Assembly: GCF_054482525.1 (NCBI RefSeq)
Contig: NZ_JBTHVG010000003.1
Strand: one strand, 5' to 3'
Length of the DNA: 64,000 nt
Source of the DNA: a plasmid
A model generated the notes under the pieces. The model made no database searches. It had not been told where the DNA came from and was given only the letters and a program-made list of their open reading frames with translations. Positions 6,152 through 61,970 of this stretch are shown in pieces (the first letter of the stretch is position 1; the number at the start of each line of letters is the position of its first letter). A program made the translations under genes and the position numbers.

Positions 6152-7936
6152 ATGGGTAAGCCAACAGAAGAGCAAAGACCTGTTATCGAGAATGCTAGCG
6201 CAAACAATATGGTGATAGCAGCGCCTGGATCAGGCAAATCATTCACCATGATAGAAGCGGTTATATCGATTCTCAAAAAGTATCCATATGCAAGAATCGG
6301 GATGGTGACCTTTACTCGCGCTGCAACAAACGCACTTGCAGCAAAGTTACAAAAGCGATTGAGCAAGAAGGATCTTGACCGGGTGCTGGTGGATACTTTT
6401 CACGGACTCGTTAAGAAGCAACTGGACATGATTCGCTGGCCGGGAAAGATGTTGATAGGGCCAGCACAGAGATCTGTCATTCACCGGGCTTTGAAAGAAT
6501 CCGGTGTAACGATGAAGTTTGCTGAAGCTGAATTCGTTATTGATGCTATCGGCAGAGAAATGGATACGGATGTGATTTCAGTTCGGCATAACAGACAACA
6601 GATCCATTTATTTAATACCTATCAGGCGTTATGCCAGAAAGACCATGTGGCGGACCTCAATGCTCTTTCAAAATTTGTTGTCGGTCAAATGCATTCGGGA
6701 AAAATGCGCACGTTAGATTTGACACATTTGATAGTAGACGAAGTTCAGGATACTGACTCTATACAATTCTCATGGATAGCATTGCATACAAGAGCTGGAG
6801 TCTATACGAGTATAGTTGGAGACGATGATCAGGCCATCTACTCCTTCAGATCCTCAGGAGGAGTCAAAATATTTCAACAGTTTGAAAAACACTTCAGACC
6901 TAACATATTTTACTTAAACACATGCTTTAGGTGTGAACCTGAAATTTTAGAGGTGGCCGGAGCACTGATAGGAAAGAATGTTTACCGTTATGCCAAAGAG
7001 TTACGCTCGGCAAAAAAGGGAGGAGGAAAGGTCACTTTTCGTTCATATGTAGATATGGAGGAACAGATACAGGGTATTTTAAGCCTTATAAATCAGGATC
7101 CACATGGATGGGCAATTCTAAGCCGCAATAATGCTCACTTGGATGAGCTAGAAAGTTTGATCGAACAGCCAGTAATTCGTTACGGAGGTAAATCATTCTG
7201 GGATGAAAAAGAAACAAGCGATGTGTTAAGCCTTATGGCCTTTTTCCGACAATCAAATGATCCTCGCTTAATGAAGAGAGTATTGGCATTGTTTGGAGAA
7301 CAGGAATCAGTTTTGGATGATGTGGCATTGAGTATGAGAGGAAGAAAAGTTACTTTTGGCGACCTTGCCATCCCGGAGGACAGTTCTCTCGAAACAAAAA
7401 CATTACATTCAAACTTCGTGCGCTTTACCCAGGAAAGTACTGATAAAGTTGAGATAGCAAAACGTTTCGCCAACCTTACGAAATGGATGGAATCGTCGTC
7501 AATCAAGATGAGGAGTAATAAAGGTACAGCAACCTTAACAAAAATTGCTTTAGACACTTGTAAACAGTGGGCAGAAAAGACTGGTTGGATGAATATGATC
7601 AATCGTGCTGCTGCAATGTCATTAGGCCCTAGGAAGAAGGACGAGGAATACAGCCCAGAGAAAGTAGTCCTATCAACCTTGCATGGTTCAAAGGGTCTTG
7701 AGTGGAATAAAGTAATAATAATGAGTTGTAATGCGGATCAGATACCAAGTAAAAGATCAGTTGGGGAGGAGGCAATAGAAGAAGAAAGACGTTTGCTTTA
7801 TGTTGGATTTACGCGTGCAGAAAAGCAACTTTTTGTAATGTGGTATGGTGACCCTTCTTTCTTTTTAAGAGAATGCAGTGAAGAAAAGATAAAAGAAGCA
7901 GCTAATATTCGAATTTCTCCAGTTTATACAGAATAA
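6152..7936 (+). CDS. UvrD/Rep/PcrA-like SF1 DNA helicase (594 aa), solitary
   Basis: Walker A AAPGSGKS, motif II LIVDEVQDTDS, motif III GDDDQAIYSFR, motif V VLSTLHGSKGLEWNKVII, motif VI YVGFTRAEKQL; GAGG RBS 5 nt upstream of the ATG. Confidence 0.85.
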   Translation: MGKPTEEQRPVIENASANNMVIAAPGSGKSFTMIEAVISILKKYPYARIGMVTFTRAATNALAAKLQKRLSKKDLDRVLVDTFHGLVKKQLDMIRWPGKMLIGPAQRSVIHRALKESGVTMKFAEAEFVIDAIGREMDTDVISVRHNRQQIHLFNTYQALCQKDHVADLNALSKFVVGQMHSGKMRTLDLTHLIVDEVQDTDSIQFSWIALHTRAGVYTSIVGDDDQAIYSFRSSGGVKIFQQFEKHFRPNIFYLNTCFRCEPEILEVAGALIGKNVYRYAKELRSAKKGGGKVTFRSYVDMEEQIQGILSLINQDPHGWAILSRNNAHLDELESLIEQPVIRYGGKSFWDEKETSDVLSLMAFFRQSNDPRLMKRVLALFGEQESVLDDVALSMRGRKVTFGDLAIPEDSSLETKTLHSNFVRFTQESTDKVEIAKRFANLTKWMESSSIKMRSNKGTATLTKIALDTCKQWAEKTGWMNMINRAAAMSLGPRKKDEEYSPEKVVLSTLHGSKGLEWNKVIIMSCNADQIPSKRSVGEEAIEEERRLLYVGFTRAEKQLFVMWYGDPSFFLRECSEEKIKEAANIRISPVYTE

Positions 7937-9203: not shown

Positions 9204-9260
9204 TCCTGTTAAGGGGGAACCCTAACGGGGCTTCTCTTTGAACAAATCGAGGAGCGGAAA

Positions 9261-25478: not shown

Positions 25479-26459
25479 ATGAGCCTGGAGAAACGTATGA
25501 GTTATGACGATTTGCCCTATTTTCGTGACCAGATTCTGGAACGTATCGACTCGCTTAAGTGTTTTCTTTCGAACACCCCCCCGCTGATGGCAAACCTGAT
25601 GACTGTCTCCACCGTATCTCGAACAGAAGAGCGACTGAAGCAGGTTAAACCCATCAGGGTTAGTGTTAAAGACGATGCTTCGGTTGAGGAAATTATTCAG
25701 GCACTTACTGACATCTGTGTGGATGACATAGAGTCATTAAGTCATGATTCCACCAAAGTGACCACTAAATACCCGGGTCTTATCATTGTCCCAGAAAGAG
25801 CAGATCTTCTCGAAAGCTTGATCACATCTATAAATGAAGCAAAAAATGATTTTGCTGCGGCAATGAGGCGTATCGATAATAAAAAGAATGTCCGTTTTGA
25901 TAAAGTGCACAAGAAGCTCCCGGGCCTTGTCGCTATGCACTCAACAAGAAATGTCCTTTTCATCAAGTCCCAGCTTAAAAAAGTTACTTTTTCATGGCGG
26001 CTAAACCGAAACCAGGAAGTTAAAACAGCAGAGCAACTTGTGAGTTTGTTGGAGCGCAGGAGAGCCTCAGAAGTAAAAAATGTAGCAACTACCAATTTGA
26101 ATGTCGTGTCTAATATCGATAAGGCTTTACACCGTCTTGAATTTCACCCACTGAAGCAGGGCGAATCTTATCGCCTTTGTCGAACTAACTCTTTCCCTGT
26201 TCCGATTGCTCACATTTTTGCATTTAGGCCTGAAGGCCAGGAACGAAACGGGAATAAATATGCTGAGACTGATTATTCAGTAGTAAAAGCATCCTTGCCC
26301 ATTTTCGCAGCAGGCAACATACCTCAATTAAAAACGCTCTCTGACTGGGCTCCTGAAAACAGCCAGGGCCCGTCCAACCAACGGAAGCTGAGCCTGAAAT
26401 ATACAGAACTCGTGCCGGGGGCTGAGCTGGGCATTTTCATTGTCAGCCCCGAAAATTAA
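25479..26459 (+). CDS. Tus-like (replication terminus-binding protein-like)
   Basis: Block FDKVHKKLPGLVAMHSTRNVLFI...FSWRLNR resembles the Tus block [23 protein letters not shown]...FGWANKH as I recall it; size about 320 aa. The real start may be the ATG at 25497 (GGAG RBS). Confidence 0.4.
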   Translation: MSLEKRMSYDDLPYFRDQILERIDSLKCFLSNTPPLMANLMTVSTVSRTEERLKQVKPIRVSVKDDASVEEIIQALTDICVDDIESLSHDSTKVTTKYPGLIIVPERADLLESLITSINEAKNDFAAAMRRIDNKKNVRFDKVHKKLPGLVAMHSTRNVLFIKSQLKKVTFSWRLNRNQEVKTAEQLVSLLERRRASEVKNVATTNLNVVSNIDKALHRLEFHPLKQGESYRLCRTNSFPVPIAHIFAFRPEGQERNGNKYAETDYSVVKASLPIFAAGNIPQLKTLSDWAPENSQGPSNQRKLSLKYTELVPGAELGIFIVSPEN

Positions 26460-26468
26460 GGAACAACA

Positions 26469-27374
26469 ATGCAATGGATTTCCACAGCCAGCCAGAAAAT
26501 CGATGAGCGTCTCTATCGTGTCTGCGTCTGGGTAAAAAAATATCACGCTGATGCGATTAACCGCGTTGTGCTTACCGTTGATCTAAGTAAAGCCCGACAT
26601 GACCCTGACGAGGACCAGGTAAGAGCAGAGCTGCTGTGCGGCCATTATTTTTTGCTTCGTAAGGAAAACGCTTCGAACTCTGCGCCTGACGATCAAAAGT
26701 TTGCTTTCCTGCCTGACGGGCGCAATCTGTGTTGGCAGACCGCAACCCCGGTGCTTCAGCATCTCCTGCTCAATAAAAACGTTCCTGAGTCGCTGAGGTT
26801 GCTTACGGACTACATACATATGCGTCTGGCCAGGCTGACAATGGTACCAATGTCCGGAACCATCATGAACGAGGCTCTGCTGGACAGCATCAGCTGGGTT
26901 AAGGTGGATTTGACCTACTTCTGGCAGTACGAACAGCTCAGCTCTCATCTGGGACCCATCCAGATAACCCACAAGGCACTAGTACGCTTCGGGCATCTGG
27001 CAAAGAATGATGAAAACTCCAGTGCCATAAGAATCCTGCGTCAGCGTCTGTCTTCAGAATTCTTACAAGAATTTCAGATGGCTGAGGATGAGCTAAAGCG
27101 CAAACAGTCGTTGATGGGCACCATGGACGTGAAAATGCTGTTTCATGCTCATTACCCCAGCCAGAAGATGCTGGTGGCTCGATATAAAAATGGTTGGGTA
27201 ATGGTGGATTGTTTTCTGTTTCATCATACCAAACCTAAGAAAAAAGCAAAAAACAAAACTACTGTGGCTAAGCCTCAACTTAAAGAGACTAAAAGAGAAG
27301 GGAGTGAAAATGGAACTGGGCATTATGGTGTGCATCGTGTTGTTACTCTCCGTGGCGGCGGCGTGGATCAGTAA
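26469..27374 (+). CDS. Hypothetical protein
   Basis: 301-aa ORF with a basic, lysine-rich C-terminal tail. Confidence 0.4.
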   Translation: MQWISTASQKIDERLYRVCVWVKKYHADAINRVVLTVDLSKARHDPDEDQVRAELLCGHYFLLRKENASNSAPDDQKFAFLPDGRNLCWQTATPVLQHLLLNKNVPESLRLLTDYIHMRLARLTMVPMSGTIMNEALLDSISWVKVDLTYFWQYEQLSSHLGPIQITHKALVRFGHLAKNDENSSAIRILRQRLSSEFLQEFQMAEDELKRKQSLMGTMDVKMLFHAHYPSQKMLVARYKNGWVMVDCFLFHHTKPKKKAKNKTTVAKPQLKETKREGSENGTGHYGVHRVVTLRGGGVDQ

Positions 27375-27654
27375 TAAGACAGTTGATTTGCTCGAAAGAT
27401 TCTATTTCAAGCGTCCGCTGAGCATGGAGTACGCGGCATGGCTACGTGTAATGTGTGCAGGCTTGTTATTGGTTTTTATTCAGGTTGCTCCACAATTTAC
27501 ACTTCTGTATACCCTTAAACTTGTCACGCTTATTAATCTTGGAATCCAGACAATGAAATTAAATGGCGTGTACAAATATAAAAGAACGGGAATTTTGCCT
27601 CCGGGAGGGGCACTCTCTAATCTCACCAGACTTAACCCGTTCAAGAAAAAATAA
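27310..27654 (+). CDS. Small hypothetical membrane protein
   Basis: AAGGGAG RBS 5 nt before the ATG at 27310; two predicted TM helices; overlaps the 3' end of the previous ORF in another frame. Confidence 0.3.
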   Translation: MELGIMVCIVLLLSVAAAWISNKTVDLLERFYFKRPLSMEYAAWLRVMCAGLLLVFIQVAPQFTLLYTLKLVTLINLGIQTMKLNGVYKYKRTGILPPGGALSNLTRLNPFKKK

Positions 27655-27675: not shown

Positions 27676-28860
27676 CTATTCATCAAAGGCATTTCGCATA
27701 AGCTTGATCATTGCTTTTTTACCAGCTTCAATATTACGAATGTAGCGCATAACCATTTCTTCATTCGACCAGTTCCCCATTTCCATAATCTGTGGTAGCG
27801 AGTAACCTTCAATATTTAGCTGTATCGCTCCGCCTACACGAACGCTGTGCCCTGTCCAGTAACGAGTTTTAGTCTCATTTGGATAAAGCTCATTCCACAT
27901 CTCTTTAAATGCTCGTAAAAGGGAATTTTTGCTGAGCATACCGGCATCGTCCACAGTGTCTTCTTCATCTTCATCGTTCAGAAGACTTTGCTTAGCACGA
28001 TAGGGTAGGTTATGCCTTTTAAGAAGTTCAGATAGCTCATTCCCCTTACTCCGAAGCTTCCAGCCGGGTGGCATATAGCCTGTATCATGGAAATTTACGG
28101 CCTGGAAAAGGAATTCATCCGGATGACTGTGCTGATCCATTTTCACGAGGTTCATCAATCTCAAGAGGCAGTTAGTTAACTGACGTGTCAGCCGGTAGGT
28201 AAGAAGTGTACTAATGTTCGTTTTTGTACGGTATACCGTCAGGTTAAATTCACCGGTCATACTATCCAGAGACAGATCTTTCAGACGTATACGTCGAATT
28301 TCGGATGAACGGAGCAGTGTTTCAAAGCCTGTCCAGATCAGGCACAGGTCACGAAGTTTACGAACTGAGTTTGTAGTACTGCGTAACTTTATCAGAGCCT
28401 TGAGATCGCCAATAAGAAAGGGAGTTGCCTGTTTAGTCGTCTTTCGCTTCCGGGCTTCCGATTGTTTTAAGGCTTCCAGCATGTACCATGCTTCAGACGT
28501 AATAATCCCGGGCAGGTTAAGCCCTTTTTTATGGATACTATTTAAGGCCTGAAGACAGCTGTTTATGCTGCTTCGTGACAATTTGCCTTCAAGATGCCCC
28601 ATAAACGCAAGCAGAGCGTCCTCAGACACGGGGAGCGAACTTACTGGCCAGTCTGTATGCAACCGGGCATTCGCCAGATACCATTCGTTCCATACTCGTA
28701 GCCAGTGCAGATAGGTTTTAGCAGTGTTGTATCTCAGATGGGAAAAGTAACGGATCAAGCGTGAAAGCTGTTTATCATGGTTGCCGAACGTTTCCAGCTG
28801 CTGATGCAATTCGCTTTCCGAAAACTGTCTGATCACTGATTGATTCTTCATCCTGCTCAC
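27676..28860 (-). CDS. Tyrosine site-specific recombinase/integrase
   Basis: C-terminal catalytic region HSVRVGGA...MRYIRN (H-x-x-R and catalytic Tyr); start may be the ATG at 28851 rather than the GTG at 28860. Confidence 0.8.
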   Translation of the reverse strand: MSRMKNQSVIRQFSESELHQQLETFGNHDKQLSRLIRYFSHLRYNTAKTYLHWLRVWNEWYLANARLHTDWPVSSLPVSEDALLAFMGHLEGKLSRSSINSCLQALNSIHKKGLNLPGIITSEAWYMLEALKQSEARKRKTTKQATPFLIGDLKALIKLRSTTNSVRKLRDLCLIWTGFETLLRSSEIRRIRLKDLSLDSMTGEFNLTVYRTKTNISTLLTYRLTRQLTNCLLRLMNLVKMDQHSHPDEFLFQAVNFHDTGYMPPGWKLRSKGNELSELLKRHNLPYRAKQSLLNDEDEEDTVDDAGMLSKNSLLRAFKEMWNELYPNETKTRYWTGHSVRVGGAIQLNIEGYSLPQIMEMGNWSNEEMVMRYIRNIEAGKKAMIKLMRNAFDE

Positions 28861-29021: not shown

Positions 29022-29234
29022 ATGTCTGACACAAAGCAGTCTTATTTAATGAAATTCCGTAAGTGTAGTTCGTTCGAAACGCTCGAAAAAGTATTTGAAA
29101 GGTTATGTGAAAAAAACTCGGGTGTCGCCTCTCTTGAAATTTCTGGTGCTTATGATCATCGTAAAGCCGAACTGACAATGAAAAAGTTATATGACAAAGT
29201 TCCTGCGAGTGTGTGGACCTTTGTTCGCGAGTAA
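29022..29234 (+). CDS. Small hypothetical protein
   Basis: GAAGG RBS before the ATG at 29022; about 70 aa. Confidence 0.3.
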   Translation: MSDTKQSYLMKFRKCSSFETLEKVFERLCEKNSGVASLEISGAYDHRKAELTMKKLYDKVPASVWTFVRE

Positions 29235-29594
29235 TTATTAATATTGGCACAACAAAAAGACTGTGCCTAGATTTGAAAATAGTTTATGCCCCTTTCGGGG
29301 CTAAAGGCATTGTAATAGCCTGTCTTTTAAAGTTGTTTATTAAGTTCGGAGAAAAACTTTAATCATAAGCCAAGCCCACTGCTAAATACATCCGATATTC
29401 TCCTTCATTTTATTAGAAGTGATAAAAGTTACTTTACCTAAACTTCTCTCTCAATATTTGTAAGGCTCTCATTTGATTTTTGTCAAACATTAATCTGGAA
29501 GACGGAAAAATCATTTCTTTTAATACGTTTTACAGAAATCCTCCTCCGTTATTTCGGATATAGTTTGAATCATTATCAAAAACGGGGTGCAGCC

Positions 29595-30677
29595 ATGCGT
29601 AAGAGTTATACATTTGGTATTCCATTTGGACTCCAGCGAGAATCAGGACTCTTTTTAGATATTACAGAGGTCAGCCGGGGTATTGACTGTAACTGCATCT
29701 GCCCCGCTTGCAAAACTGATCTGTTAGCAAAGCAGGGGGAGGTCAAGCTTTGGCATTTCTCACACAGTACAGCTGTAGCCGGTGACTGTGATGGTCTGAT
29801 GGAAGCCATCCGGGGAAAGATTATTGAAGTCATCAACGAGCACCAGGTTCTTGGTTTCCCAAATCTTCTCGCTGGCGACGATGGTGGGCCGGTTTCACTG
29901 AATGAGGTTAGTGGAAGCGGCAGTATGTTCGGAGGCACAGCTGATCTGTTCGTAAAGGTTAATGATTTATGTGTGGCCGTCTTTCTGGACAGGGATCGCA
30001 GCATTTCAGAGAAGTTAACCTTTGACCATCTTCATCCTTCCGAAAGAGTTGCCGCATTGCGTATCGATCTTCCTGATATTGAATATGAAATCAGTCAGGT
30101 GCAGCTCGGGCGACGTAAAACAACATACAGTGAGTGCATTGAAAGCCTGATCATTGATGAGACCAGTTCCCGGGAATGGCTATATCATCCATTAATGCAT
30201 GAACTTGAATCTGAACCTCTTCAGGAGTATCGGGGACGGGAGCCTTCAGAGGAAGGGCCTCTTCTTCAGCGCCTTGCTGACTGTAAGATGAAATTGCCTG
30301 ATATCCTTCCGGGCAGTCATAACGCGCTAGTCAGGTTACAGCAGGATACGATTGTATGTCTGTGTCGGTTAACGGTTCGGGCTTATGACATCGCTCAGAC
30401 CGATGAATTTCCTTTGTTCCTTCGCTATTTCAGGTTGCACTGCCTGGAAAACAGCGAACATGTCAGTTACGAAAGACTGATCTGCTGGCAGGAAATGATT
30501 TCAAAAACCCAGGAAGGCCAGTCCTTGACACAAAACGAACTTGAATATCTTCATGAGATTGTCCGCATCGCCTTTTACAATCACCGGCTTAACAATGTCA
30601 GTATTTCAGATGTTAAAAACCATGACACTGGAAAGAAGAGCGGCAGGGTAGAGTCACAAAATTATTCACTTTTATAA
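29595..30677 (+). CDS. CoiA-like zinc-finger protein, solitary
   Basis: N-terminal motif CNCICPACKTDLLAKQGEVKLWHFSH matches the C-x-C-P-x-C-K...HF-x-H signature also seen in the protein at 60984..61970; start moved to the ATG at 29595. Confidence 0.5.
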   Translation: MRKSYTFGIPFGLQRESGLFLDITEVSRGIDCNCICPACKTDLLAKQGEVKLWHFSHSTAVAGDCDGLMEAIRGKIIEVINEHQVLGFPNLLAGDDGGPVSLNEVSGSGSMFGGTADLFVKVNDLCVAVFLDRDRSISEKLTFDHLHPSERVAALRIDLPDIEYEISQVQLGRRKTTYSECIESLIIDETSSREWLYHPLMHELESEPLQEYRGREPSEEGPLLQRLADCKMKLPDILPGSHNALVRLQQDTIVCLCRLTVRAYDIAQTDEFPLFLRYFRLHCLENSEHVSYERLICWQEMISKTQEGQSLTQNELEYLHEIVRIAFYNHRLNNVSISDVKNHDTGKKSGRVESQNYSLL

Positions 30678-30843
30678 ATAACTTGGGCTTTGCGCATTAA
30701 ACCCTTGCCGCAGGCGGTGTACCGCATATCCGGCACAGACAGTCAGTTTTTTCTGGCAGCTTAAATTTGACACTGCTTAATATAGTGATTCATTAAACAG
30801 GTTCAGTATGCTGCCAGAACGTTTTAGTCGTAATGGGCGTCCG

Positions 30844-32343
30844 TTAGTTTTCAACTAACTGAACGACGACCAGCCTGCCGCCTTCCTCCTTTGACAGAAC
30901 AAACTGAGCGTTATTCGTCAGTTCAATTTTTTCCCCAATGGCAATCTGTCGTTTATCCGGTAATGACATAAGCCCATTTATGCCTTCATTTACTAACCAC
31001 CACTGATCGTTATGGAAAACAAAATACCCAACTCGTTTCCTTTGTGCATCGGTTGTGCGCTCATTTGGCGCAATGAGGCGATTCACATGCCACGCATAGA
31101 TTGACTGCCCGCTCCACACCATCAACCGGTGGTCGTCAGGACGATAACTGCCTTCCTTTCGGGATGAATATAAATTTAGAACCGGTAATTTACCCTTGTA
31201 TGGCGTACCGCAGTAGGGACAAACCGGCTTTGTCTTACCTGAGAAAACGTACCATTTCTGTTCACACGCCTTGTTCTGGCAGGGCTGTATCAGATCGACT
31301 GTTTTAACCAGGGCACTTTCCCACTCATCGGCGGTCGGGCGTTTATTGGCATCGTGTAAGCCATCAATAAAGGCGCGTTCAAACAAAGGCGTCAAATAAG
31401 GGCCCATGATGGTGTAAGGAATTTTCTCCGGGTCAGCCCAGGGCAGTGAAAAGGAGGATAGCTGACTGACTTTGACTGCATTGCTTTTGTCTGTCGGATG
31501 TTCAATGAAGAGTGCCTTCTCACCCATAGATAAGGTCTCATCACGTACTTCATCCGACATGTCATGTATTTTTCCGCCACGTAGCGGATGACGGAAGAAC
31601 AGATACATGTAGATAAGCACCGACAGCGCATGACGGTCAGTAGAAATGCTTGGCAATACGCGGTTCGGATCCTCTTTGGAAAGATGGCTGGTTTTCACCA
31701 CTTCCGGAGCGATAAAATCCGGGGTGCCCACGACGTCGGGAGGATACTTTCCAGGGACAACCAGGCCGTCTACGTCAATGATGCAGGCATGTCCCATTTC
31801 TGGATCGATAAGCACGTTTTTATAGCTTAGATCGCTGTGACAGAGACCTGCCGCATGCATCCTTCTGACGGCTCTTGTTAGCAGCAGACAGACCTTGAGA
31901 TAGGTAAGCGTATTGCCTCGTTCACGTAGGTCGAGAAATTTATTCTGGTTGCTGGCGCTGGCAAACCATTTGCCTTCCTTTTCACGGCCTTTTATGCCAA
32001 GAAAATCATCGTTTTTAGAGCCGTATTTAAAGAAAAAGTAGCTTTTGTAGGTTGGAACCACGATGCCGATTTTATCCCCATGCTCAACAACGTGGGTCGG
32101 CCAGCAAAACAGGTCCTTCCAGTATTCACCTCCGGACTGGCCAAAAATGTTTTGCCTGTAGCGTCCGGTGATCATATCAATCCGATCCCGGGCCTGCTCG
32201 TTCTGCGGTTTATGATAAAAAGCGACGACGTATGATTTATCAGGCGAGAAGTAAACATCCTTCATCGAGCCCGAACCAATTACCTCGTCAACATACTGGA
32301 CTGTTTCGCCGTCCTTTGTTTTGCACGTAACAATATTTGCCAT
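30844..32343 (-). CDS. Ser/Thr protein kinase with C-terminal zinc ribbon and FHA-like domain
   Basis: Gly loop GSGSMKDVY, catalytic loop CHSDLSYKNVLI, DVDG, APEVV; Zn ribbon CQNKAC...CPYC; start set at the ATG at 32343 (GGTGA RBS). The ORF-track start at 32397 would overlap the phosphatase gene. Confidence 0.85.
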   Translation of the reverse strand: MANIVTCKTKDGETVQYVDEVIGSGSMKDVYFSPDKSYVVAFYHKPQNEQARDRIDMITGRYRQNIFGQSGGEYWKDLFCWPTHVVEHGDKIGIVVPTYKSYFFFKYGSKNDDFLGIKGREKEGKWFASASNQNKFLDLRERGNTLTYLKVCLLLTRAVRRMHAAGLCHSDLSYKNVLIDPEMGHACIIDVDGLVVPGKYPPDVVGTPDFIAPEVVKTSHLSKEDPNRVLPSISTDRHALSVLIYMYLFFRHPLRGGKIHDMSDEVRDETLSMGEKALFIEHPTDKSNAVKVSQLSSFSLPWADPEKIPYTIMGPYLTPLFERAFIDGLHDANKRPTADEWESALVKTVDLIQPCQNKACEQKWYVFSGKTKPVCPYCGTPYKGKLPVLNLYSSRKEGSYRPDDHRLMVWSGQSIYAWHVNRLIAPNERTTDAQRKRVGYFVFHNDQWWLVNEGINGLMSLPDKRQIAIGEKIELTNNAQFVLSKEEGGRLVVVQLVEN

Positions 32344-32368
32344 ATTGATCACCGAAGAAGCGTATCCC

Positions 32369-34009
32369 TTACCACAACACCGCAATAGTGCGGTCATCGT
32401 GGTTCCCTGTGGAGAAAAAGTTAAGCCAGTCGCCTAACCTCTCAGGCGCAATACTGGCGTCTGTAAGGACAGGGATGAGCTCATCAAGGAGACGGGTCCA
32501 TTTTTCGTCACTGCGAAGCCCGTTATCTGTCTCAAACAGAGGGTCTGATACGCCATCTGTCATGAGGATCAAGTGAGATACATCATTCCATTTACCCACG
32601 CTGATGCGGCCGCTAAACGAGGGGTCTGCGATAATGCTCTGGTCAAGAAAGCGGGTTTGTCCTGCGTATTCTCCGCTATCGGGATTTCCCAGTATCCTGA
32701 CTTTACCGGAAGGGCTGTATGCACCTATCGCACCATCACCAAGCCAGAATGCAGCCGCAAACAGCTCGTTATCAGTTCGTAGCGCTACAGTTGCCAGTAG
32801 GGTTGTTGAATAGGATTTCACAGGTTGTTCTGCACAAATGGCTTCGTTCTGGATACTGTTGACCGCGAGCGTAGCTGCCTGTTTAAAATGATGAAGCATG
32901 GCGTTTATGGTTGCCTGCTGATCGCTCCCTTCCCACGCCGTGATGTGCTGCTTTAGATGGACGCCTTTCAAACCACTGAGCTGATTGAAAAGGTAATCGC
33001 CAGCCGTTTGGACTGCAATCCGGGAGCCTTCCCGGGAATTTACCGCACTACCGGCCCCGTCTGCGACCAGCATGACAGACCATCCTGTTTCCTGGCAGTG
33101 GTTGATATAGAAGTCGTCATCTCTGAAGCTCCCGGCATGCTCATGAGATCGTCCCCGGCGACTGGCGGCAGCAATACGTATGTCACCCCTGACCAGGCCA
33201 GCAGCGTCCAGATGGGACTTAGGGTAGGAAGCGTCTGCTGGTGGCTCTACCACCTTCCACAGGCTTCTCGGATCGGGATTGACTATAAAAAGCTGTTTTG
33301 TTTCGCATTCGTCGTGCGAAGCGCATGACCAGAGTACTGAAAGCTCTATATCGCCGCTTTCGGTGGGTGTACCTGTCAGCAACTTATGCTCTTTGTCAAA
33401 GGTCAGGCCAATGTTCCTGGGAAAGACAACGTCCCTGACAGTAGCCTGCTGGCCCTCATCCAGAACTATAGCAACCGGCGAAGAGAAACGTTCGCCTGCG
33501 CGGGCGTTGGGAATAACTATTTTAGCTCTCGGGGGAACGGCAGGTGGCACAGCTAATCCGGCCCGCTGCTGGCCTGTCGGTATCTGCCCGGGTTTTAATA
33601 CCAGGGAAGACAGGTTTTCGTCTTCCCTCTGTGCTGGTTTATCAAATTCGTAATAAGGCATCAGCTTCCAGAACGGAGGATGAGGTTCATTTTCTGGCAG
33701 GGGTTGCAGTAATGGTGTATCGGTAGCGTCAATGCCCGGGTTATCAGCATCACTTACGACCGTTTGTTGCTGATCGGAAAGGCTGGATGCTGACGAGGGG
33801 GCGATCTCTGCGTCGTTATAACCTTCGCTAACCCGCGCAGATAAACCCTGTGCAAGGCTCTCAATCCGCTCTTTAAGCCGCATAATCTCTTCAGTAAGGG
33901 AAGGGTCGTGCGATAGAAGAAAAAGCCGCTCACCTTCTACAGGGTGGCCCAGCTCAGACAGCACTAAGCGGATAATCTTCTCTTCAAGTAAAACATTTTG
34001 CGACATCAA
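32369..34009 (-). CDS. PP2C-family Ser/Thr phosphatase with long N-terminal extension
   Basis: PP2C motifs VMLVADGAGS and LILMTDGVSDPL; its ATG overlaps the stop of the upstream vWA gene (ATGA). Confidence 0.85.
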   Translation of the reverse strand: MMSQNVLLEEKIIRLVLSELGHPVEGERLFLLSHDPSLTEEIMRLKERIESLAQGLSARVSEGYNDAEIAPSSASSLSDQQQTVVSDADNPGIDATDTPLLQPLPENEPHPPFWKLMPYYEFDKPAQREDENLSSLVLKPGQIPTGQQRAGLAVPPAVPPRAKIVIPNARAGERFSSPVAIVLDEGQQATVRDVVFPRNIGLTFDKEHKLLTGTPTESGDIELSVLWSCASHDECETKQLFIVNPDPRSLWKVVEPPADASYPKSHLDAAGLVRGDIRIAAASRRGRSHEHAGSFRDDDFYINHCQETGWSVMLVADGAGSAVNSREGSRIAVQTAGDYLFNQLSGLKGVHLKQHITAWEGSDQQATINAMLHHFKQAATLAVNSIQNEAICAEQPVKSYSTTLLATVALRTDNELFAAAFWLGDGAIGAYSPSGKVRILGNPDSGEYAGQTRFLDQSIIADPSFSGRISVGKWNDVSHLILMTDGVSDPLFETDNGLRSDEKWTRLLDELIPVLTDASIAPERLGDWLNFFSTGNHDDRTIAVLW

Positions 34010-35046
34010 CCTCTCCCTCTGTTTACGTCGAAGTTAGTGTTTCCGCCATCATTGCTGAATGACAGACCTGTTTCACACCACGGGCAGATCACGTCATCCG
34101 GGCCGTCAATGCACAGCAATTTTCCGCATGAGCACAGGGCAAACGCACTGGCATTACCGCAGTGAGGGCAACCCGGTACGCCATGCAGTTCGCTGGTGTT
34201 TACCTGCAAACCGGTAGCGGTGGCATCTGACCATGCAAAATAGTCTTCATCGATGGGATAGCATCCGGCAATATTAAAGCTGTTCAGGTTCAGGCTGAAA
34301 TCGAGCCCGGAAATCCTTGCTGGTGGCCGTTCATACTTCATCAGATACGGACGACGGGTCTTGCTGCAACGGCCGGTAAGCGTAACGCAGTTTTCGTCGT
34401 ACGCTTTTACTGGCTCGTCCTTGGCCAGCCGGACTATGTATTCAGTCTGGCTGAGCTCAGGTTGTTTGTCGTCTCCGACGCTGCGGCTGTGCGCCGTAAC
34501 CGAGGCTGTGATCCATTTGATGAAGCGGGTAAAGTCCCCTTCCTGAGACTCGGTGAACAGCATGACATTCTCTGTCAGTTGCCGCAGGGTATTCAGGTCC
34601 GCTGACGGCCCCAGGCCAACGGCAATGAGATTCACTTTACTCGCGTAGTGATCCTTCCAGCGCTTCACTTCTGCGGTTGTGTCGTCAGTCGGACGTCCGT
34701 CGGTAAGGAGATACACGACGGGTTTCCAGTCGCCTTTAGCCTCATGAGTGGTTTTTCTGACCTGGGTATCAATTTGTACGGTCAGCTCACGCAATGCGGC
34801 CCCAAGGCTCGTACCGCCGCCAACGGGAAGGCGGGGAGGGTAGAACGAGGCAATTTCGTGAAGAGGTACAATCGTACGGGCTACACCGGCAAATGCGATT
34901 ACCGAAACCCAGGCTGTTTCAAGTGCGTGTGGATCCTTTCTTAAATCTCCGATGATCATTTGCAGACCATCAGTCATTTTTTTCAGGTTTTCACCAATCA
35001 TGGACTCTGAACAGTCCAGGACAAAAAACACGGGAAGGCGTCTCAT
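34006..35046 (-). CDS. TerY-like vWA protein with C-terminal zinc ribbon
   Basis: MRRLPVFFVLDCSESM MIDAS motif; C-terminal CPHC...CSC...CPWC; start moved to the ATG at 35046 with a GAGG RBS. Confidence 0.8.
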   Translation of the reverse strand: MRRLPVFFVLDCSESMIGENLKKMTDGLQMIIGDLRKDPHALETAWVSVIAFAGVARTIVPLHEIASFYPPRLPVGGGTSLGAALRELTVQIDTQVRKTTHEAKGDWKPVVYLLTDGRPTDDTTAEVKRWKDHYASKVNLIAVGLGPSADLNTLRQLTENVMLFTESQEGDFTRFIKWITASVTAHSRSVGDDKQPELSQTEYIVRLAKDEPVKAYDENCVTLTGRCSKTRRPYLMKYERPPARISGLDFSLNLNSFNIAGCYPIDEDYFAWSDATATGLQVNTSELHGVPGCPHCGNASAFALCSCGKLLCIDGPDDVICPWCETGLSFSNDGGNTNFDVNRGRG

Positions 35047-35131
35047 AATTTTCCTCGTACGGCTGGTACGGCCAGCAGAAAACGTTGCTGTACAGAAAGG
35101 TGCTGCCCGGAAAGCAGCACCTTTCTGTCTG

Positions 35132-35770
35132 TCAGAGCACCAGCTGGATTTCTGGTGGAGGAGGGGGAAGGGTATCAGTTCCGTTATTGATCCCCGCGCT
35201 TGTGCTGCCGGAAGACACGCTGGCCGATACCCATTTAAAGAAACCTGCAAACGCGGTTGAATCTAGCGTCTCCAGAGACACAACCTTATCGGTAAGCTGT
35301 TTTAAGTGCTCATGGCCTGCTTTAGGACCAACGGCGCAGGCAATGATGGATCCGAATCCCCGGCCGCGAATCGCTTTTACCGCTTCACCGTACGCCAGGG
35401 CATCAGAAGGGGTTCCATCAGTCATCAGGAATACCAGAGGACGCCAGTCTCCTTTTGTATCACCATCTGAGCGACGTACATCCCGTTCAACACACTGCAT
35501 CAGACATTCAAGGGCAGCACCGGTGAACGTCCCGCCTGCGCTTGGCACAACGATGTCAGAAAACTGGAAGTCTTCCAGCGGCGTGAGAGGAATGAACTCA
35601 CGCGCCTCATTGTCATAGGTGATAATGGAGATATGAACGCTTTCGAGGGCGTAGGGATCCTGGCGAAGAGCGCTAAGCATCGCCTGAATTCCAACGTTAA
35701 CGGAATGGATGGACTCACCGCGCATCGAGCCGGATGTGTCGATAACAAGGTAAACAGGCAGGCGGCGCAT
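35132..35770 (-). CDS. terY: TerY-family vWA protein
   Basis: MRRLPVYLVIDTSGSM MIDAS motif, about 212 aa; its ATG at 35770 overlaps the terX stop (ATGA). Confidence 0.8.
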   Translation of the reverse strand: MRRLPVYLVIDTSGSMRGESIHSVNVGIQAMLSALRQDPYALESVHISIITYDNEAREFIPLTPLEDFQFSDIVVPSAGGTFTGAALECLMQCVERDVRRSDGDTKGDWRPLVFLMTDGTPSDALAYGEAVKAIRGRGFGSIIACAVGPKAGHEHLKQLTDKVVSLETLDSTAFAGFFKWVSASVSSGSTSAGINNGTDTLPPPPPEIQLVL

Positions 35771-36411: not shown

Positions 36412-36433
36412 GACATCCCCTTAATTAATAAAA

Positions 36434-37072: not shown

Positions 37073-37496
37073 ATGTAATTCCTTCTTAAGAGATCGGAAG
37101 AGGAGAGTAGTTTCAGGAAGAGGCCAGAGTTTGTAGATTTGATAAAACGGCACGACATCTGTCGGGTGGAGATTAAATACTCAGAAGCGGCATTAAAGAA
37201 ATAAGTTAACCACCATTGAATTACCGACATGTGAATGGCCTCTTATCAGAGAAAAAAATTCAGACCGTACTGGAATATAAATTTCTGAAAAAAACTCCGG
37301 CAAAAATAAACTTTCTTATGTATGAAAATCATCATACATCACAGATCTGCATGAATGGAGTGTAAATCGCCCAAAGATTGATGTGTAGCACAAGAGGATG
37401 TCAAGACACCAGGTTTTGTAGGCAGAAAGGCGCTGCTGACATTGCGGGAGGAGAATAGATCAAAACTCCGTCACGCAGATACAGAGGTGAAATATG

Positions 37497-58947: not shown

Positions 58948-60987
58948 CTAGACTTTTAGCCGCTGAAGATCTCTTAGATACCATTGGTGAAACTTGCTGA
59001 AGTCAGCCTTCTGTTTCTCTACCGTGCTTTTATAGATCGCATCACTGGTAACCGCACAAGCAGTCCAGCCAGCCTCATAGACGAAGCGAGTAGCTATCGG
59101 TGACTTCTTCGGGGTGCTATCCCAGCGGTTTTTGAGCCACCGCGCAAGCCCTTCATCAAGAGGGACAACCAGATTTAGCTGCTGTTTTGTGCGAGTGATA
59201 CCGACATAAAACAGCCGACGTTCCTCCTCGATTACCTCTTCGGTCGGAGGGGTGTTCATCGATGTGCGAACGCTGTAAACATCATCGGGTTTGCCGCCAG
59301 GAAATTCCTGCTCATTCAGCCCGACCAGTATTACGTTATCCCACTCCAGCCCCTTGGAACCATGCAGTGTGGAAAGGATGAAGGGATCGCAGTCAGTTGC
59401 AGCCTCGCCTGGATTCAAGATAAGGTTTAAAAACGTGCGGGAATCGATCTTACTGGAGACAAGTAGCTCCTCGATCCTCTTGACCCCTCGTTGCTGGTCG
59501 TTCGATCCAGTGCGAGTTACACCCTCAGAGCCAACACTATCAATGAAACCCTCCATACGCAGGCGTAGTAACACATCGATAGCAGGCGTTTCCTCTCCGT
59601 CTTTCTGGCAGATAGTGGCGAGCCTGCCCAGCCGATCTTTTTGGTTTTGTGCGCCCTCGAATAACTGGCCTAGAGCAGACCATAGGTCGGCGTGCGGAGC
59701 CATCAATCCACTGAGCGCCGCTTTGAATTGCCCTTTCTGCCAGCTAAAACCAGCCTCCTTCAGAAAGCCGTAAACAATCGCTTGTTTGTTGGGATGGTTT
59801 TCCAGTAGCCGCAGATCGCCGTACACAGACAGCAAGACGCCAACTACCAGTATCCCGATTTCAGTGCGGGTGTGTAATGCGCTTGAACCATTGAGGTAGC
59901 GATAAGGTAGCCCACACAGGCGTAAAGTAATTTCCGCCTCAGCAAGGTTCGCCTTAGTGCGGGACAATATGGCTTGTGTTCCACTGCTCACCGAGAGGTT
60001 TGATAGCACCTTGGATAGGCAGTTATCAAAGTGCAATCTGACCTCTGTTTTGGGGGTGCTAGGATGACTGACACAAAGCTTGGTCAGCTTTGTAGAGTTG
60101 CGCCGAATTACCGAGTTAGCCATCAAGGAAAGCTCATGGCCAAATCTGAACGTGCATGACAGTTGAAACACCTTCGTATTCGGGTAGTGCTTTTCAAACA
60201 GTCCGCCGATAAAGTCTGGTCGAGCACCACGCCACTCATAAATACACTGGTTAACATCACCAACAGCCATAACTGACGTATCCGACTTAGATAGCAAGCG
60301 GGTCATGTCATGCTGTATCAGGTTAACGTCCTGATATTCATCAACAATGATGTGCTTGAAGTGGGCACCAAGGCTGCTGTCATTACGCAACAGTGCGACA
60401 GCCTCAACCAAACAGTCATCAAAGGTTCGCAGACTGTTTTCCTCCAGCAGCTCACAATAGCGGCCATAGGCGCGAATAAACTCCCGTTTGATGTTGCTGA
60501 ACGTTGGATCATTGGCAGCATCAACAGGAGTTACGGCCGCCGCCCGGCAGCGAGCAATAAACAGCTCGAAGTTTTCAATTTCATTGGGGTCAATAAAATT
60601 CGCCTCATGGTCAAAGCCATAGCAGTAGGCTTGCTTTACCAGTTGCTCATAGCGGTAGTCGCTTGGAGTAATGAGGTCTTTCTTCTTGATTATCTGTTGG
60701 CGTTCTCCGTAACCAACAATCTTTAAGGCCAAGCTGTGGAACGTGCGGATTTCTGGAATCACGCTCGACATCAGTGCCGTCTTCAACTTCTCCGTGAAGC
60801 TCACCTGCGCCGACTTGTTGTACATCAGGATCAGAATGGAGCGAGGATCAGTTCCCGTCTTGACCAGCCGCTCAACGCGCTTTACAAGTATGGTTGTTTT
60901 CCCGCTACCAGGTACGGCTTTTACCAACGCATGTCCGGTGTCATGGCTGACAATACTTTTCTGCTCCCAAGTCAGTCTTTTTGTCAT
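58948..60987 (-). CDS. UvrD/PcrA-like SF1 DNA helicase (679 aa)
   Basis: Walker A AVPGSGKTT, motif II IIVDEYQDVN, motif III VGDVNQCIYEWRGARPDF, motif V ILSTLHGSKGLEWDNVIL, motif VI FYVGITRTKQQL; its ATG overlaps the stop of the upstream gene (ATGA). Confidence 0.85.
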   Translation of the reverse strand: MTKRLTWEQKSIVSHDTGHALVKAVPGSGKTTILVKRVERLVKTGTDPRSILILMYNKSAQVSFTEKLKTALMSSVIPEIRTFHSLALKIVGYGERQQIIKKKDLITPSDYRYEQLVKQAYCYGFDHEANFIDPNEIENFELFIARCRAAAVTPVDAANDPTFSNIKREFIRAYGRYCELLEENSLRTFDDCLVEAVALLRNDSSLGAHFKHIIVDEYQDVNLIQHDMTRLLSKSDTSVMAVGDVNQCIYEWRGARPDFIGGLFEKHYPNTKVFQLSCTFRFGHELSLMANSVIRRNSTKLTKLCVSHPSTPKTEVRLHFDNCLSKVLSNLSVSSGTQAILSRTKANLAEAEITLRLCGLPYRYLNGSSALHTRTEIGILVVGVLLSVYGDLRLLENHPNKQAIVYGFLKEAGFSWQKGQFKAALSGLMAPHADLWSALGQLFEGAQNQKDRLGRLATICQKDGEETPAIDVLLRLRMEGFIDSVGSEGVTRTGSNDQQRGVKRIEELLVSSKIDSRTFLNLILNPGEAATDCDPFILSTLHGSKGLEWDNVILVGLNEQEFPGGKPDDVYSVRTSMNTPPTEEVIEEERRLFYVGITRTKQQLNLVVPLDEGLARWLKNRWDSTPKKSPIATRFVYEAGWTACAVTSDAIYKSTVEKQKADFSKFHQWYLRDLQRLKV

Positions 60988-61970
60988 GCCTTAACCTTGT
61001 AATTGGCGCACTGACGGGCCTCGGTGTAGGGAACGATCTTTGCTTTACTGTGACATTGCAGATAGCCATCCTCCCATCGGCCTGCTTGCTCGCACATAAT
61101 GCAGTTGGGAAATAGTGAATGAGGATCGGCGTGACGGATAAAAGCTCGTAAGTTATCTGCCAGCTCAGCGGCCCCTAACGATCTAGGCCATGTGTTCACG
61201 TCAGAATTGATTGTTAAATCCACTTCAGCGAGCGGCATCGTTTGTTCGTTGAGTCGGCCGGAACCACTTAAACTCCAGACAGACATATCCACGTTACCTA
61301 CTGAGCAGACGCCGCTACAGGTGTCCACAGATTGAAACGGGGGAAGCCAGTTGAATACTCTCAGGATCTTCTCCTTGATCGAGTAGGCCCCGGTAAGCAA
61401 CATCTGAATATCAGAGGCAGATTGGACCTTAAACTCAAGAATCGGGATACCGGCTTCGATCTTGTCTTGAGAGCAGGGGTGTGTGACACAAATCTCTACG
61501 TAGCAACGCCTTTCGCCAGTCGTATCATACAACATCACGTCTGGTCGCAGCCCTGTGACCTTATCGTGTTTTTCCAGCTCTGCCTGATCGAAAAATTGAG
61601 TCAAGTTGTAGCGTGCAGGCACGGATTTTACGCACTGACGTGCTTCGTCTCTAACTAAGGCTAAATGAGGACCATTACAGGCAACCCGGCGCTCCAGCTC
61701 AAGGCTAATAGGCATTTCACGGCTGAGAGCTTGTTGGTAGCGATAGAAGAATGCTTCTTTGCCGCACTTGTGAAGATAGGTTTCAAGGGCACAGCATTCT
61801 TCCGAATGGCGAAAGTGCTTAGCGTTGAACTCGCCCATTACCGGGGTCAGGGGGCTCTTACAACCTGGGCAGGTGTAAGTATGTGAGCGCAGGGCAGCGC
61901 CAATGTGCGTGAGGGTGCCCTCGTCGTCTAGCGCGTAAGCGTATTGTATTGAGCTGGATTGAGTTGTCAT
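60984..61970 (-). CDS. CoiA-like zinc-finger/nuclease-family protein, helicase partner
   Basis: N-terminal YTCPGCKSPLTPVMGEFNAKHFRH signature; further Cys/His clusters; RPDVML...E-x-C patch suggestive of a nuclease core; start set at the ATG at 61970 (ORF-track TTG at 61988). Confidence 0.55.
   Translation of the reverse strand: MTTQSSSIQYAYALDDEGTLTHIGAALRSHTYTCPGCKSPLTPVMGEFNAKHFRHSEECCALETYLHKCGKEAFFYRYQQALSREMPISLELERRVACNGPHLALVRDEARQCVKSVPARYNLTQFFDQAELEKHDKVTGLRPDVMLYDTTGERRCYVEICVTHPCSQDKIEAGIPILEFKVQSASDIQMLLTGAYSIKEKILRVFNWLPPFQSVDTCSGVCSVGNVDMSVWSLSGSGRLNEQTMPLAEVDLTINSDVNTWPRSLGAAELADNLRAFIRHADPHSLFPNCIMCEQAGRWEDGYLQCHSKAKIVPYTEARQCANYKVKA

What the first reader, a model, noticed from the sequence alone, without database searches (positions are those of the whole stretch)
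29595..30677. Second CoiA-like zinc-finger protein, unlinked to any helicase
The same N-terminal signature (CNCICPACKTDLLAKQGEVKLWHFSH) recurs in a 360-aa protein beside the tyrosine recombinase. The window therefore holds two CoiA-like genes and two UvrD-like helicases, but only one physically coupled pair, which suggests either trans-acting partners or a decayed duplicate system.
Basis: seen in the sequence. Interest (0 to 1): 0.45.

Follow-up and report, generated by a model that had tools for sequence, protein, structure and literature searches.

The report
Dead CoiA-like nuclease on IncHI plasmids
This gene is a conserved backbone gene of IncHI resistance plasmids that encodes a zinc-finger protein built on a nuclease fold that has lost its catalytic residues, so it probably binds DNA without cutting it, and nothing ties it to either helicase in the window.

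Summary
ORF 29595-30677 (+) encodes a 360-aa protein with the quoted motif, and that motif matches Pfam CoiA_N above the curated cut-off. The window is IncHI2 plasmid backbone.

The protein has three parts: a C2H2 zinc finger, a confidently modelled PD-(D/E)xK (restriction-endonuclease-like) core, and a helical C-terminal domain found only in plasmid relatives.

It is a true but very distant homologue of the helicase-coupled protein at 60984-61970 (hhalign 92.7%, 149 columns, 15% identity). That protein keeps a full catalytic set (E, H, K, D, E, H, E). The target, like about 85% of its closest relatives, has Phe/Tyr/Met and Arg at those positions. This points to a pseudo-nuclease clade, not a decayed copy. 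Orthologues are under strong purifying selection (dN/dS 0.07).

The order Tus-like, tyrosine recombinase, Hha, this gene is kept in five IncHI-type lineages, down to 31-34% identity. No helicase is adjacent in any of them. The nuclease-helicase cassette is recently spread cargo. The other helicase is the conjugation helicase TrhI.

In R27, a deletion that removes the orthologue does not destabilise the plasmid.

Best reading: a non-catalytic nucleic-acid-binding backbone protein. Its biological role is unknown.

The parts
29595..30677 (+). CDS of the target protein (360 aa; WP_001232449.1, annotated 'hypothetical protein'), an IncHI backbone gene
   Evidence: RBS GGGGTG lies upstream of the ATG. 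dN/dS between orthologues is 0.068.
29619..29789 (+). N-terminal strands plus CoiA_N-type zinc finger (residues 9-65). The C2H2 ligands are C36, C39, H54 and H57. C32, C34 and C65 are also conserved.
   Evidence: Pfam PF25164 at 32.5 bits, above GA 26.3. C36, C39, H57 and C65 are invariant in 97 homologues. pLDDT is 87-98 in the deep-alignment model.
29790..30194 (+). PD-(D/E)xK (restriction-endonuclease-like) core without the catalytic set (residues 66-200). M69 and R73 are on helix 1, D117 is on strand 2, F130/D132/D134/R135 are on strand 3, and the W195-x-Y-H-P motif closes the domain.
30240..30614 (+). C-terminal helical domain (about residues 216-340) with the conserved IAQTDEFPLFLRYFRxHC block. 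It is restricted to plasmid-borne long forms.
   Evidence: In the exhaustive search, only close relatives (P0013, P0014 and IncHI orthologues) align beyond residue ~215.
29022..29234 (+). hha (Hha/YmoA family), the upstream same-strand neighbour. This neighbourhood is conserved across IncHI-type plasmids.
   Evidence: Pfam HHA E=9e-19. Annotation and synteny.
27676..28860 (-). Tyrosine recombinase (Cre/Xer-like; R27 R0183), divergent from hha. Part of the conserved block.
   Evidence: Pfam Phage_integrase. Synteny. The R27 supplement names R0183 as Cre-like.
25479..26459 (+). Tus-like replication-terminus-binding protein, the start of the conserved block. Context only.
   Evidence: Pfam Ter E=5e-19. 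Synteny calls as above.
60984..61970 (-). Comparator, not part of the target: a CoiA_N-finger PD-(D/E)xK nuclease with an intact catalytic set (E63, H67, K71, D144, E159, H164, E179)
58948..60987 (-). Comparator: a UvrD-like helicase translationally coupled to the nuclease above (4-bp overlap). The cassette is conserved in Vibrio and other genomes.
6152..7936 (+). Comparator: the second UvrD-like helicase, which is TrhI, the IncHI conjugal-transfer helicase
   Evidence: Pfam and NCBIfam UvrD-type domains. Annotated trhI in plasmid records.

Best explanation
The gene is a conserved, selected backbone gene of IncHI-type (MOBH/MPF_F) conjugative plasmids.

Its product has three parts:
- a CoiA_N-type C2H2 zinc finger;
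- directly after it, a PD-(D/E)xK nuclease-fold core in which the metal-binding and catalytic residues (Glu on helix 1, His, Glu on strand 3, His, Glu on strand 4) have been replaced together by Met/Phe/Tyr and Arg, leaving only the strand-2 Asp;
- a lineage-specific helical C-terminal domain.

I infer that it works as a non-catalytic ('pseudo-nuclease') nucleic-acid-binding protein. The finger and the remodelled, more basic cleft would hold DNA, possibly single-stranded or branched DNA as CoiA-type enzymes do. The C-terminal domain would contact other proteins. It acts on its own or with backbone neighbours, not with a helicase.

Shown: gene reality, selection, domain architecture, fold, loss of the catalytic set, homology to the intact nuclease family, neighbourhood, and independence from the helicase cassette.

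Inferred: DNA binding, lack of catalysis, and any biological role.
For: Identity and selection:
- The region is 100% identical to IncHI2 plasmids.
- Homologues occur in 2,810 PLSDB plasmids, 2,495 of them near full length.
- dN/dS is 0.068 between Klebsiella orthologues; for IncHI2 versus R27, dN is 0.18 with saturated dS.

Architecture and fold:
- CoiA_N matches above the cut-off.
- The AF2 model of residues 1-215 has pLDDT 94.9 and pTM 0.91, with alpha-beta-beta-beta-alpha-beta topology.

Homology and the catalytic map:
- hhalign to the intact family gives 92.7%, E=4e-7, 149 columns. It maps E63/H67/D144/E159/H164 onto M69/R73/D117/F130/D134.
- In 97 homologues, 7 keep E69-H73-D117-E130-H134-E156. 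Between 80 and 90 have F/Y/M/W at 69, R at 73, Y/F at 130 and R at 135.
- Across long-form orthologues at 31-74% identity, no acidic residue other than D117, D158 and E163 is conserved.

Context:
- The order Tus-like, recombinase, Hha, target is kept in IncHI2, IncHI1 R27 (interrupted by IS1-RepFIA), K. pneumoniae IncFIB/IncHI1B, K. oxytoca and K. grimontii plasmids, with no helicase.
- The R27 orthologue lies inside Del15, which did not reduce plasmid stability (PMC4853401).
- The two candidate R27 locus tags (R0175, R0176) are both expressed and are higher at 37 °C than at 25 °C, as is hha (PMC7366339).
Against: - No experiment addresses DNA binding or catalysis.
- D117 is kept in 94 of 97 homologues, and the IncHI1/2 orthologues have invariant D132 and D134, so a non-canonical metal site is not excluded.
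- IncHI backbones are collinear in general, so the conserved neighbourhood may not mean functional coupling. An extra ORF or an IS-flanked replicon can sit between hha and the gene.
- No phenotype is known.
Confidence: 0.55

Rival explanations
1. It is an active stand-alone nuclease with a non-canonical active site (D117 plus D132/D134 in the IncHI1/2 lineage). It would act, for example, in exclusion of competing DNA, in defence, or in processing of plasmid DNA intermediates.
For: D117 is present in 94 of 97 homologues. D132, D134 and R135 are invariant among IncHI1/2-type orthologues. Relatives often lie in variable regions next to conflict-type genes such as ResIII, SNF2, AEP-TOTE, VapE, PLD and AbiEii-like. 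PD-(D/E)xK enzymes are known to tolerate migrated catalytic residues (PMC1189080).
Against: - Both metal-binding Glu positions are hydrophobic or aromatic in the whole clade.
- In the 31-34%-identical Klebsiella orthologues, D132 becomes Asn, and R135 and R73 are not kept.
- D117 itself is Pro in two long-form members.
- There are no PADLOC or PHROG matches.
Confidence: 0.15
2. It is an accessory factor of the conserved neighbouring module. It would either target or modulate Hha/H-NS silencing, or bind recombination intermediates for the adjacent Cre/Xer-like tyrosine recombinase near the Tus-defined terminus.
For: The order recombinase, Hha, target is kept down to 31-34% protein identity, with only an 86-bp gap between hha and the target in Klebsiella plasmids. 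hha and both candidate R27 tags are more expressed at 37 °C. CoiA-type proteins act on recombination intermediates (bioRxiv 10.1101/2024.02.06.579203).
Against: - Backbone collinearity alone can explain the synteny.
- An extra ORF or an IS1-RepFIA segment is tolerated between hha and the gene.
- The upstream regions are not conserved between IncHI2 and R27.
- The more distant long forms P0013 and P0014 have no hha next to them.
- R27 deletions covering the gene or the recombinase do not reduce stability.
Confidence: 0.15
3. One reading: the protein works in trans with one of the UvrD-like helicases, either as a regulatory or targeting subunit or as a catalytically dead decoy of the cassette nuclease.
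For: It is homologous to the helicase-coupled nuclease over the finger and the core. TrhI and the target are both backbone genes and co-occur across IncHI lineages. About 10% of genomic relatives have some helicase-domain neighbour, mostly SF2.
Against: - No helicase is adjacent in any orthologous or long-form context.
- The target occurs in about 2,000 plasmids that lack the cassette (2,810 versus 811 records).
- The cassette is recent cargo, whereas the target co-diverges with the backbone.
- TrhI already has an annotated conjugation role.
- Neighbours of 76 relatives are heterogeneous, with no UvrD pairing.
Confidence: 0.08
4. One reading: it is the decayed remnant of a duplicated nuclease-helicase system whose helicase was lost.
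For: It lacks catalytic residues, lacks a helicase, and is homologous to the cassette nuclease.
Against: - The two proteins are 15% identical, and BLASTP detects only 23 aligned residues.
- The ORF is intact and under strong purifying selection.
- The substitutions are shared by a clade with thousands of members (4,029 cluster representatives at E<=1e-3).
- It has gained its own conserved C-terminal domain.
Confidence: 0.02

Closest known systems
CoiA (competence protein of Bacillota; Pfam CoiA_N PF25164 + CoiA nuclease PF06054 + CoiA_C)
   Same: Both have an N-terminal C2H2 zinc finger of the CoiA_N type (matched above the Pfam cut-off). In both, it is immediately followed by a PD-(D/E)xK-fold core and then a C-terminal extension of no known function. 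This architecture is described in bioRxiv 10.1101/2024.02.06.579203 and PMC1189080.
   Different: - There is no match to the CoiA nuclease or CoiA_C profiles, even at E<=10.
- The catalytic PD-ExQ set is absent.
- The gene is plasmid-borne in Enterobacteriaceae and is not a competence-regulon gene of Bacillota.
- The C-terminal domain is unrelated and helical.
The CoiA_N-finger nuclease + UvrD-like helicase cassette of the same window (58948-61970) and its relatives in Vibrio, Halomonas and others
   Same: The finger and the nuclease-fold core are homologous (hhalign 92.7%, 149 columns). The 'active-like' members among the target's own top homologues share that family's invariant E-H-K-D-E-H-E set.
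   Different: - The cassette protein keeps all catalytic residues and is always followed by an overlapping helicase gene.
- The target has neither.
- The C-termini differ: a Cys-rich domain in the cassette protein, a helical domain in the target.
- The evolutionary histories differ: cargo versus backbone.
Catalytically inactive PD-(D/E)xK domains used as binding or scaffold modules (for example the RAP domains of FASTK proteins, tRNA-splicing subunit Sen54, the RecC nuclease-like domain, ERCC1; from general knowledge)
   Different: There is no detectable sequence relationship. Those are eukaryotic or chromosomal repair proteins, and none carries a CoiA_N finger or sits on a plasmid backbone.
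R27 (IncHI1) ORF R0176 or R0175 (WP_001232452.1)
   Same: It is the orthologue (74% identity) and sits in the same backbone block.
   Different: It is separated from hha by an IS1-flanked RepFIA segment. It is uncharacterised apart from microarray data and a multi-gene deletion with no stability defect.

Membership tests
CoiA family (competence protein CoiA) | N-terminal C2H2 zinc finger (Pfam CoiA_N, PF25164) | tested here: met
   32.5 bits against a gathering score of 26.3, E=6e-8, residues 33-59. C36, C39 and H57 are invariant and H54 is present in 94 of 97 homologues.
CoiA family (competence protein CoiA) | Match to the CoiA nuclease-domain profile (PF06054) and to CoiA_C | tested here: not met
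   No hit even at E<=10 for the target, the second window protein or the 'active-like' relatives. A profile search with the active-like alignment retrieved 76 proteins, none carrying PF06054.
CoiA family (competence protein CoiA) | Catalytic Asp on strand 2 and Glu on strand 3 (the PD-ExQ variant) | tested here: not met
   D117 is present, but the strand-3 position is F130 and the helix-1 Glu position is M69.
CoiA family (competence protein CoiA) | Competence-regulon gene of naturally transformable Bacillota | tested here: not met
   It is a backbone gene of IncHI plasmids of Enterobacteriaceae.
PD-(D/E)xK (restriction-endonuclease-like) superfamily | Alpha-beta-beta-beta-alpha-beta core fold | tested here: met
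PD-(D/E)xK (restriction-endonuclease-like) superfamily | Acidic/Lys catalytic signature (E ... PD ... (D/E)xK or a known migrated variant) | tested here: not met
   Only the Asp remains. 80-90 of 97 close homologues share the loss. No alternative acidic set is conserved across the long forms.
CoiA_N-finger nuclease + UvrD-like helicase cassette (as at 58948-61970) | Overlapping or adjacent UvrD-like helicase gene | tested here: not met
   The neighbours are hha and a convergent kinase gene. No helicase is present in nine orthologous or long-form contexts.
CoiA_N-finger nuclease + UvrD-like helicase cassette (as at 58948-61970) | Invariant E63, H67, K71, D144, E159, H164, E179 | tested here: not met
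   The aligned residues in the target are M69, R73, (I/A), D117, F130, D134 and R156.
Gabija and other known helicase-containing defence systems (PADLOC) | Match to a component profile (for example GajA) and a co-located GajB | tested here: not met
   The target has no PADLOC match below E=1e-3, and only 1 of 44 homologues has a weak DruB hit.
IncHI backbone block Tus-like, tyrosine recombinase, Hha, X | Orthologue found in the same gene order in other IncHI-type plasmids | tested here: met
   Found in IncHI2, R27, K. pneumoniae IncFIB/IncHI1B, K. oxytoca and K. grimontii plasmids.

The most novel reading that the evidence does not exclude
The protein is a purpose-built dead nuclease that plasmids use as a decoy or adaptor. 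In one version it occupies branched or single-stranded DNA intermediates, or the partner surface of CoiA-like nuclease-helicase defence cassettes, and so protects incoming or replicating plasmid DNA (an anti-defence or anti-recombination factor). In another version it is the missing DNA-targeting partner of plasmid Hha. Either version would define a function for a family of thousands of uncharacterised proteins carried by the main multidrug-resistance megaplasmids.
Probability: 0.1. Interest if true: 0.7.

Novelty: new variant of a known kind. Interest (0 to 1): 0.35.

Why it matters
IncHI plasmids carry mcr-1, carbapenemase genes and Klebsiella virulence loci, and most of their backbone genes have no assigned function. 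This gene is present in about 2,800 sequenced plasmids. It also heads a large uncharacterised family: 4,029 cluster representatives at E<=1e-3.

Showing that it is a selected pseudo-nuclease derived from CoiA-type zinc-finger nucleases has three consequences:
- It removes a tempting but wrong annotation ('competence protein CoiA family').
- It separates the gene from the real nuclease-helicase cassette nearby.
- It gives a concrete, testable hypothesis: DNA binding without cleavage, with possible links to Hha, the recombinase, or thermoregulated plasmid biology.

In its present state the result is a well-characterised unknown, not a discovery of mechanism.

Tried and rejected
- **Sequence search of the PDB** with the protein and with the profile. 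Nothing significant.
- **Foldseek against the PDB**. No significant hit. The AFDB library was unavailable.
- **PADLOC, PHROGs and NCBIfam**. No family assignment.
- **A link to the bona fide CoiA nuclease domain.** Pfam at E<=10 and a profile search with the active-like alignment found no PF06054 protein. The PGAP name 'competence protein CoiA family protein' on an Indioceanicola relative rests on CoiA_N alone.
- **Neighbourhood enrichment in 76 genomic loci**. No recurrent partner; the most common neighbour family occurs in 5 loci.
- **A conserved promoter or operator upstream**, by aligning IncHI2 against R27. Only the RBS and the start codon are conserved. Promoter and terminator scans were at chance level, and the repeats found were short chance-like pairs.
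- **The R27 locus tag.** R0176 versus R0175 could not be resolved. The original GenBank record is not in the collections, the primary paper is not in the library, and a 121-aa overlapping ORF makes the numbering ambiguous.
- **The search for related loci with the 97-sequence alignment** failed for lack of a conserved stretch. It succeeded with a 15-sequence alignment.

Full report
**1. The observation**

The window matches IncHI2 plasmids at 100% identity, for example pMCR_W5-6. It carries traU/traN and the ter operon.

ORF 29595-30677 (+) encodes 360 aa.
- The ATG at 29595 follows GGGGTG.
- The N-terminus MRKSYT is invariant in orthologues.
- RefSeq annotates the same CDS as a hypothetical protein.
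- The quoted motif sits at 29688-29765. A back-translated pattern finds it once, against zero expected.
- Pfam CoiA_N matches residues 33-59 at 32.5 bits, above the curated cut-off of 26.3.

- The tyrosine recombinase is at 27676-28860 (-).
- A second CoiA_N-type protein at 60984-61970 (-) scores 24.2 bits, just below the cut-off. Its gene overlaps a UvrD-like helicase (58948-60987) by 4 bp.
- A further UvrD-like helicase lies at 6152-7936.

One nuance: the literal signature is unique in the window. The second protein has a related motif (11 of 23 identical).

**2. What the protein is**

A word-indexed search found only 12 close clusters. An exhaustive HMM search with their alignment found 4,029 representatives at E<=1e-3.
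- Most are 270-320 aa and align only to residues ~9-210.
- The C-terminal part (about 216-340) is predicted helical and carries a strongly conserved IAQTDEFPLFLRYFRxHC block. It is confined to plasmid-borne long forms.

With a 97-sequence alignment, AlphaFold models residues 1-215 at pLDDT 94.9 and pTM 0.91. The model shows two N-terminal hairpins carrying the finger, then helix 67-83, a run of strands, a short helix, strand 152-158 and further helices. This is the alpha-beta-beta-beta-alpha-beta arrangement of the restriction-endonuclease-like fold.

**3. Relationship to the helicase-coupled protein**

BLASTP and HMMER see only the finger. Profile-profile comparison of the two families aligns 149 columns, target 10-164 to 11-187, at 92.7% probability and E=4e-7. 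The proteins are therefore homologous beyond the zinc ribbon, at about 15% identity.

The alignment maps the invariant residues of the cassette family onto the target as follows (for the cassette invariants):

| Cassette protein | Target |
|---|---|
| E63 | M69 |
| H67 | R73 |
| D144 | D117 |
| E159 | F130 |
| H164 | D134 |
| E179 | R156 |

A census of the 97 closest homologues shows two discrete classes.
- Seven keep E-H-D-E-H-E. These align cleanly with the cassette family.
- Between 80 and 90, the target among them, have F/Y/M/W, R, D, Y/F, G/D and variable residues at those positions. They have also gained conserved R73, R135 and K193.

Across long-form orthologues at 31-74% identity, no alternative acidic set is conserved. 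The conserved residues are the Zn ligands, the W195-x-Y-H-P motif and the hydrophobic core.

I read this as a clade-wide conversion of a CoiA-type nuclease into a non-catalytic module. It is not local decay. dN/dS is 0.068 between two Klebsiella orthologues, and for IncHI2 versus R27 dN is 0.18 with saturated dS.

**4. Context**

The order Tus-like protein, one to four small ORFs, tyrosine recombinase (-), Hha (+), target (+) recurs in five lineages:
- IncHI2;
- K. pneumoniae IncFIB/IncHI1B plasmids;
- a K. oxytoca plasmid;
- a K. grimontii plasmid, with one extra ORF between hha and the gene;
- R27, where an IS1-flanked RepFIA segment separates them.

None of these has a helicase nearby. More distant long forms sit on a plasmid next to DUF6933 and AAA_16 genes and near kfrA/parA, or near an integrase.

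I also surveyed 76 genomic loci of the ~300-aa relatives, mostly from marine Gammaproteobacteria.
- The neighbours are heterogeneous and typical of mobile or conflict regions.
- About one locus in ten has some helicase-domain neighbour, mostly SF2.
- None shows a UvrD pairing.

The cassette behaves differently. It is always nuclease plus overlapping helicase. It occurs in 811 plasmids, 792 of them at least 95% identical. It is 98.8% identical in IncHI1 pHCM1, where the target's orthologue is about 73%. It is therefore recently spread cargo.

The helicase at 6152-7936 is annotated TrhI, the IncHI conjugal-transfer helicase. It co-diverges with the backbone: 82% identity in IncHI1 and about 49% in Klebsiella.

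**5. Published data on the R27 orthologue**

The orthologue (154,290-155,363) lies inside deletion 15 (150,566-156,499). Like all deletions except number 16, this one did not markedly reduce R27 stability in E. coli (PMC4853401).

Its original tag is R0176 or R0175, and I could not resolve which.
- Both tags are expressed more at 37 °C than at 25 °C (-5.24 and -2.24), as is hha (-2.47).
- R0176 is the only gene that goes down in the htdA mutant.
- R0175 is 10-fold up in the htdA mutant (PMC7366339).

**6. Mechanism**

Shown: a selected backbone protein with a CoiA_N finger, a nuclease-fold core that lacks the catalytic set, and a private helical C-terminal domain. It has no linkage to helicases.

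Inferred: it binds nucleic acid through the finger and the remodelled cleft without cutting, and it uses the C-terminal domain for protein contacts. The substrate may be single-stranded or branched DNA, by analogy with CoiA, which is described as an ssDNA endonuclease acting on transformation D-loops (bioRxiv 10.1101/2024.02.06.579203).

The biological role is open. Candidates are silencing with Hha, recombination or termination with the neighbouring recombinase and Tus, and protection of plasmid DNA.

Rivals:
- a non-canonical active nuclease (D117, D132 and D134 in the IncHI1/2 lineage);
- a neighbour-module accessory factor;
- a trans partner or decoy for a helicase;
- a decayed duplicate, which is effectively excluded.

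**7. Comparison with known families**

It resembles CoiA in architecture: finger, then PD-(D/E)xK core, then a C-terminal extension. It is not a CoiA family member.
- The CoiA nuclease and C-terminal profiles do not match.
- The catalytic residues are missing.
- The genomic setting is different.

It belongs to the PD-(D/E)xK superfamily by fold but not by active site. No PADLOC, PHROG or NCBIfam model recognises it.

**8. Verdict**

The functional suggestions (trans partner, decayed duplicate) are not supported. The gene is a new variant of a known kind: a plasmid-backbone pseudo-nuclease of the CoiA-finger lineage. Interest is moderate to low until a phenotype is found.

Noticed in passing
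window 58948-61970 (-): A two-gene cassette: a CoiA_N-finger PD-(D/E)xK nuclease with an intact catalytic set, overlapping a UvrD-like helicase by 4 bp. The same pair occurs in Vibrio and another genome, next to deaminase, SIR2 and FRG genes. PADLOC recognises only a GajB-like helicase and no named system. It looks like an uncharacterised nuclease-helicase defence candidate. It is 98.8% identical between IncHI2 and IncHI1 pHCM1, so it has spread recently.
   Followed up: partly
window 6152-7936 (+): The 'other' UvrD-like helicase is annotated in plasmid records as TrhI, the IncHI conjugal-transfer helicase. It lies just after traN (1883-5071) and is only 24% identical to the cassette helicase.
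   Followed up: partly
window ~27300-27400; L001 13325-17978: In pMCR_W5-6, the ISApl1-mcr-1-pap2-ISApl1 composite transposon is inserted between the two ORFs that overlap in this window (26469-27374 and 27304-27654). The window is the uninterrupted form of a known mcr-1 insertion site, about 2 kb from the target.
   Followed up: no
L017 (R27) 5774-9403: In R27, an IS1-flanked segment carrying repE and incC (the RepFIA-like replicon) sits exactly between hha and the target's orthologue. Deletion of incC is what destabilises R27 (PMC4853401).
   Followed up: partly
P0097; L100 4923-6914 (Indioceanicola plasmid): Some 'active-like' relatives with an intact catalytic set carry a C-terminal Xre_MbcA_ParS_C domain, the toxin-binding domain of antitoxins. 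This suggests a link to toxin-antitoxin or conflict systems. PGAP's name 'competence protein CoiA family protein' for one of them rests on the zinc finger alone.
   Followed up: no
L007-L009 4295-7954: One ~317-aa relative (P0021) lies 25 bp downstream of an 893-aa SMC/AAA_23-like ATPase. The pair sits in an integrase-bounded island that also carries a type III restriction-modification system and HipBA. It may be a two-gene module.
   Followed up: no
L002-L004 (plasmids carrying P0013): The 41%-identical long-form homologue follows a conserved run of genes: a resolvase, a 552-aa protein, an AAA_16 (STAND-like) NTPase and a DUF6933 protein. The DUF6933 gene ends only 18 bp upstream. kfrA, parA/parG and dinI are nearby.
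   Followed up: no
window 30844-37153 (-): Directly downstream and convergent lies the TerY-type module: a protein kinase with a helix-hairpin-helix domain, a PP2C phosphatase, a TerY-C metal-binding protein, vWA proteins and TerD. The tellurite-resistance operon follows. An inverted repeat at 30751-30819 lies between the two convergent genes.
   Followed up: no
window 29291-29304: A GC-rich hairpin (CCCCTTTCGGGG) lies 57 bp after the hha stop codon, followed by about 250 bp of AT-rich spacer before the target. The upstream region is not conserved with R27 apart from the RBS.
   Followed up: partly
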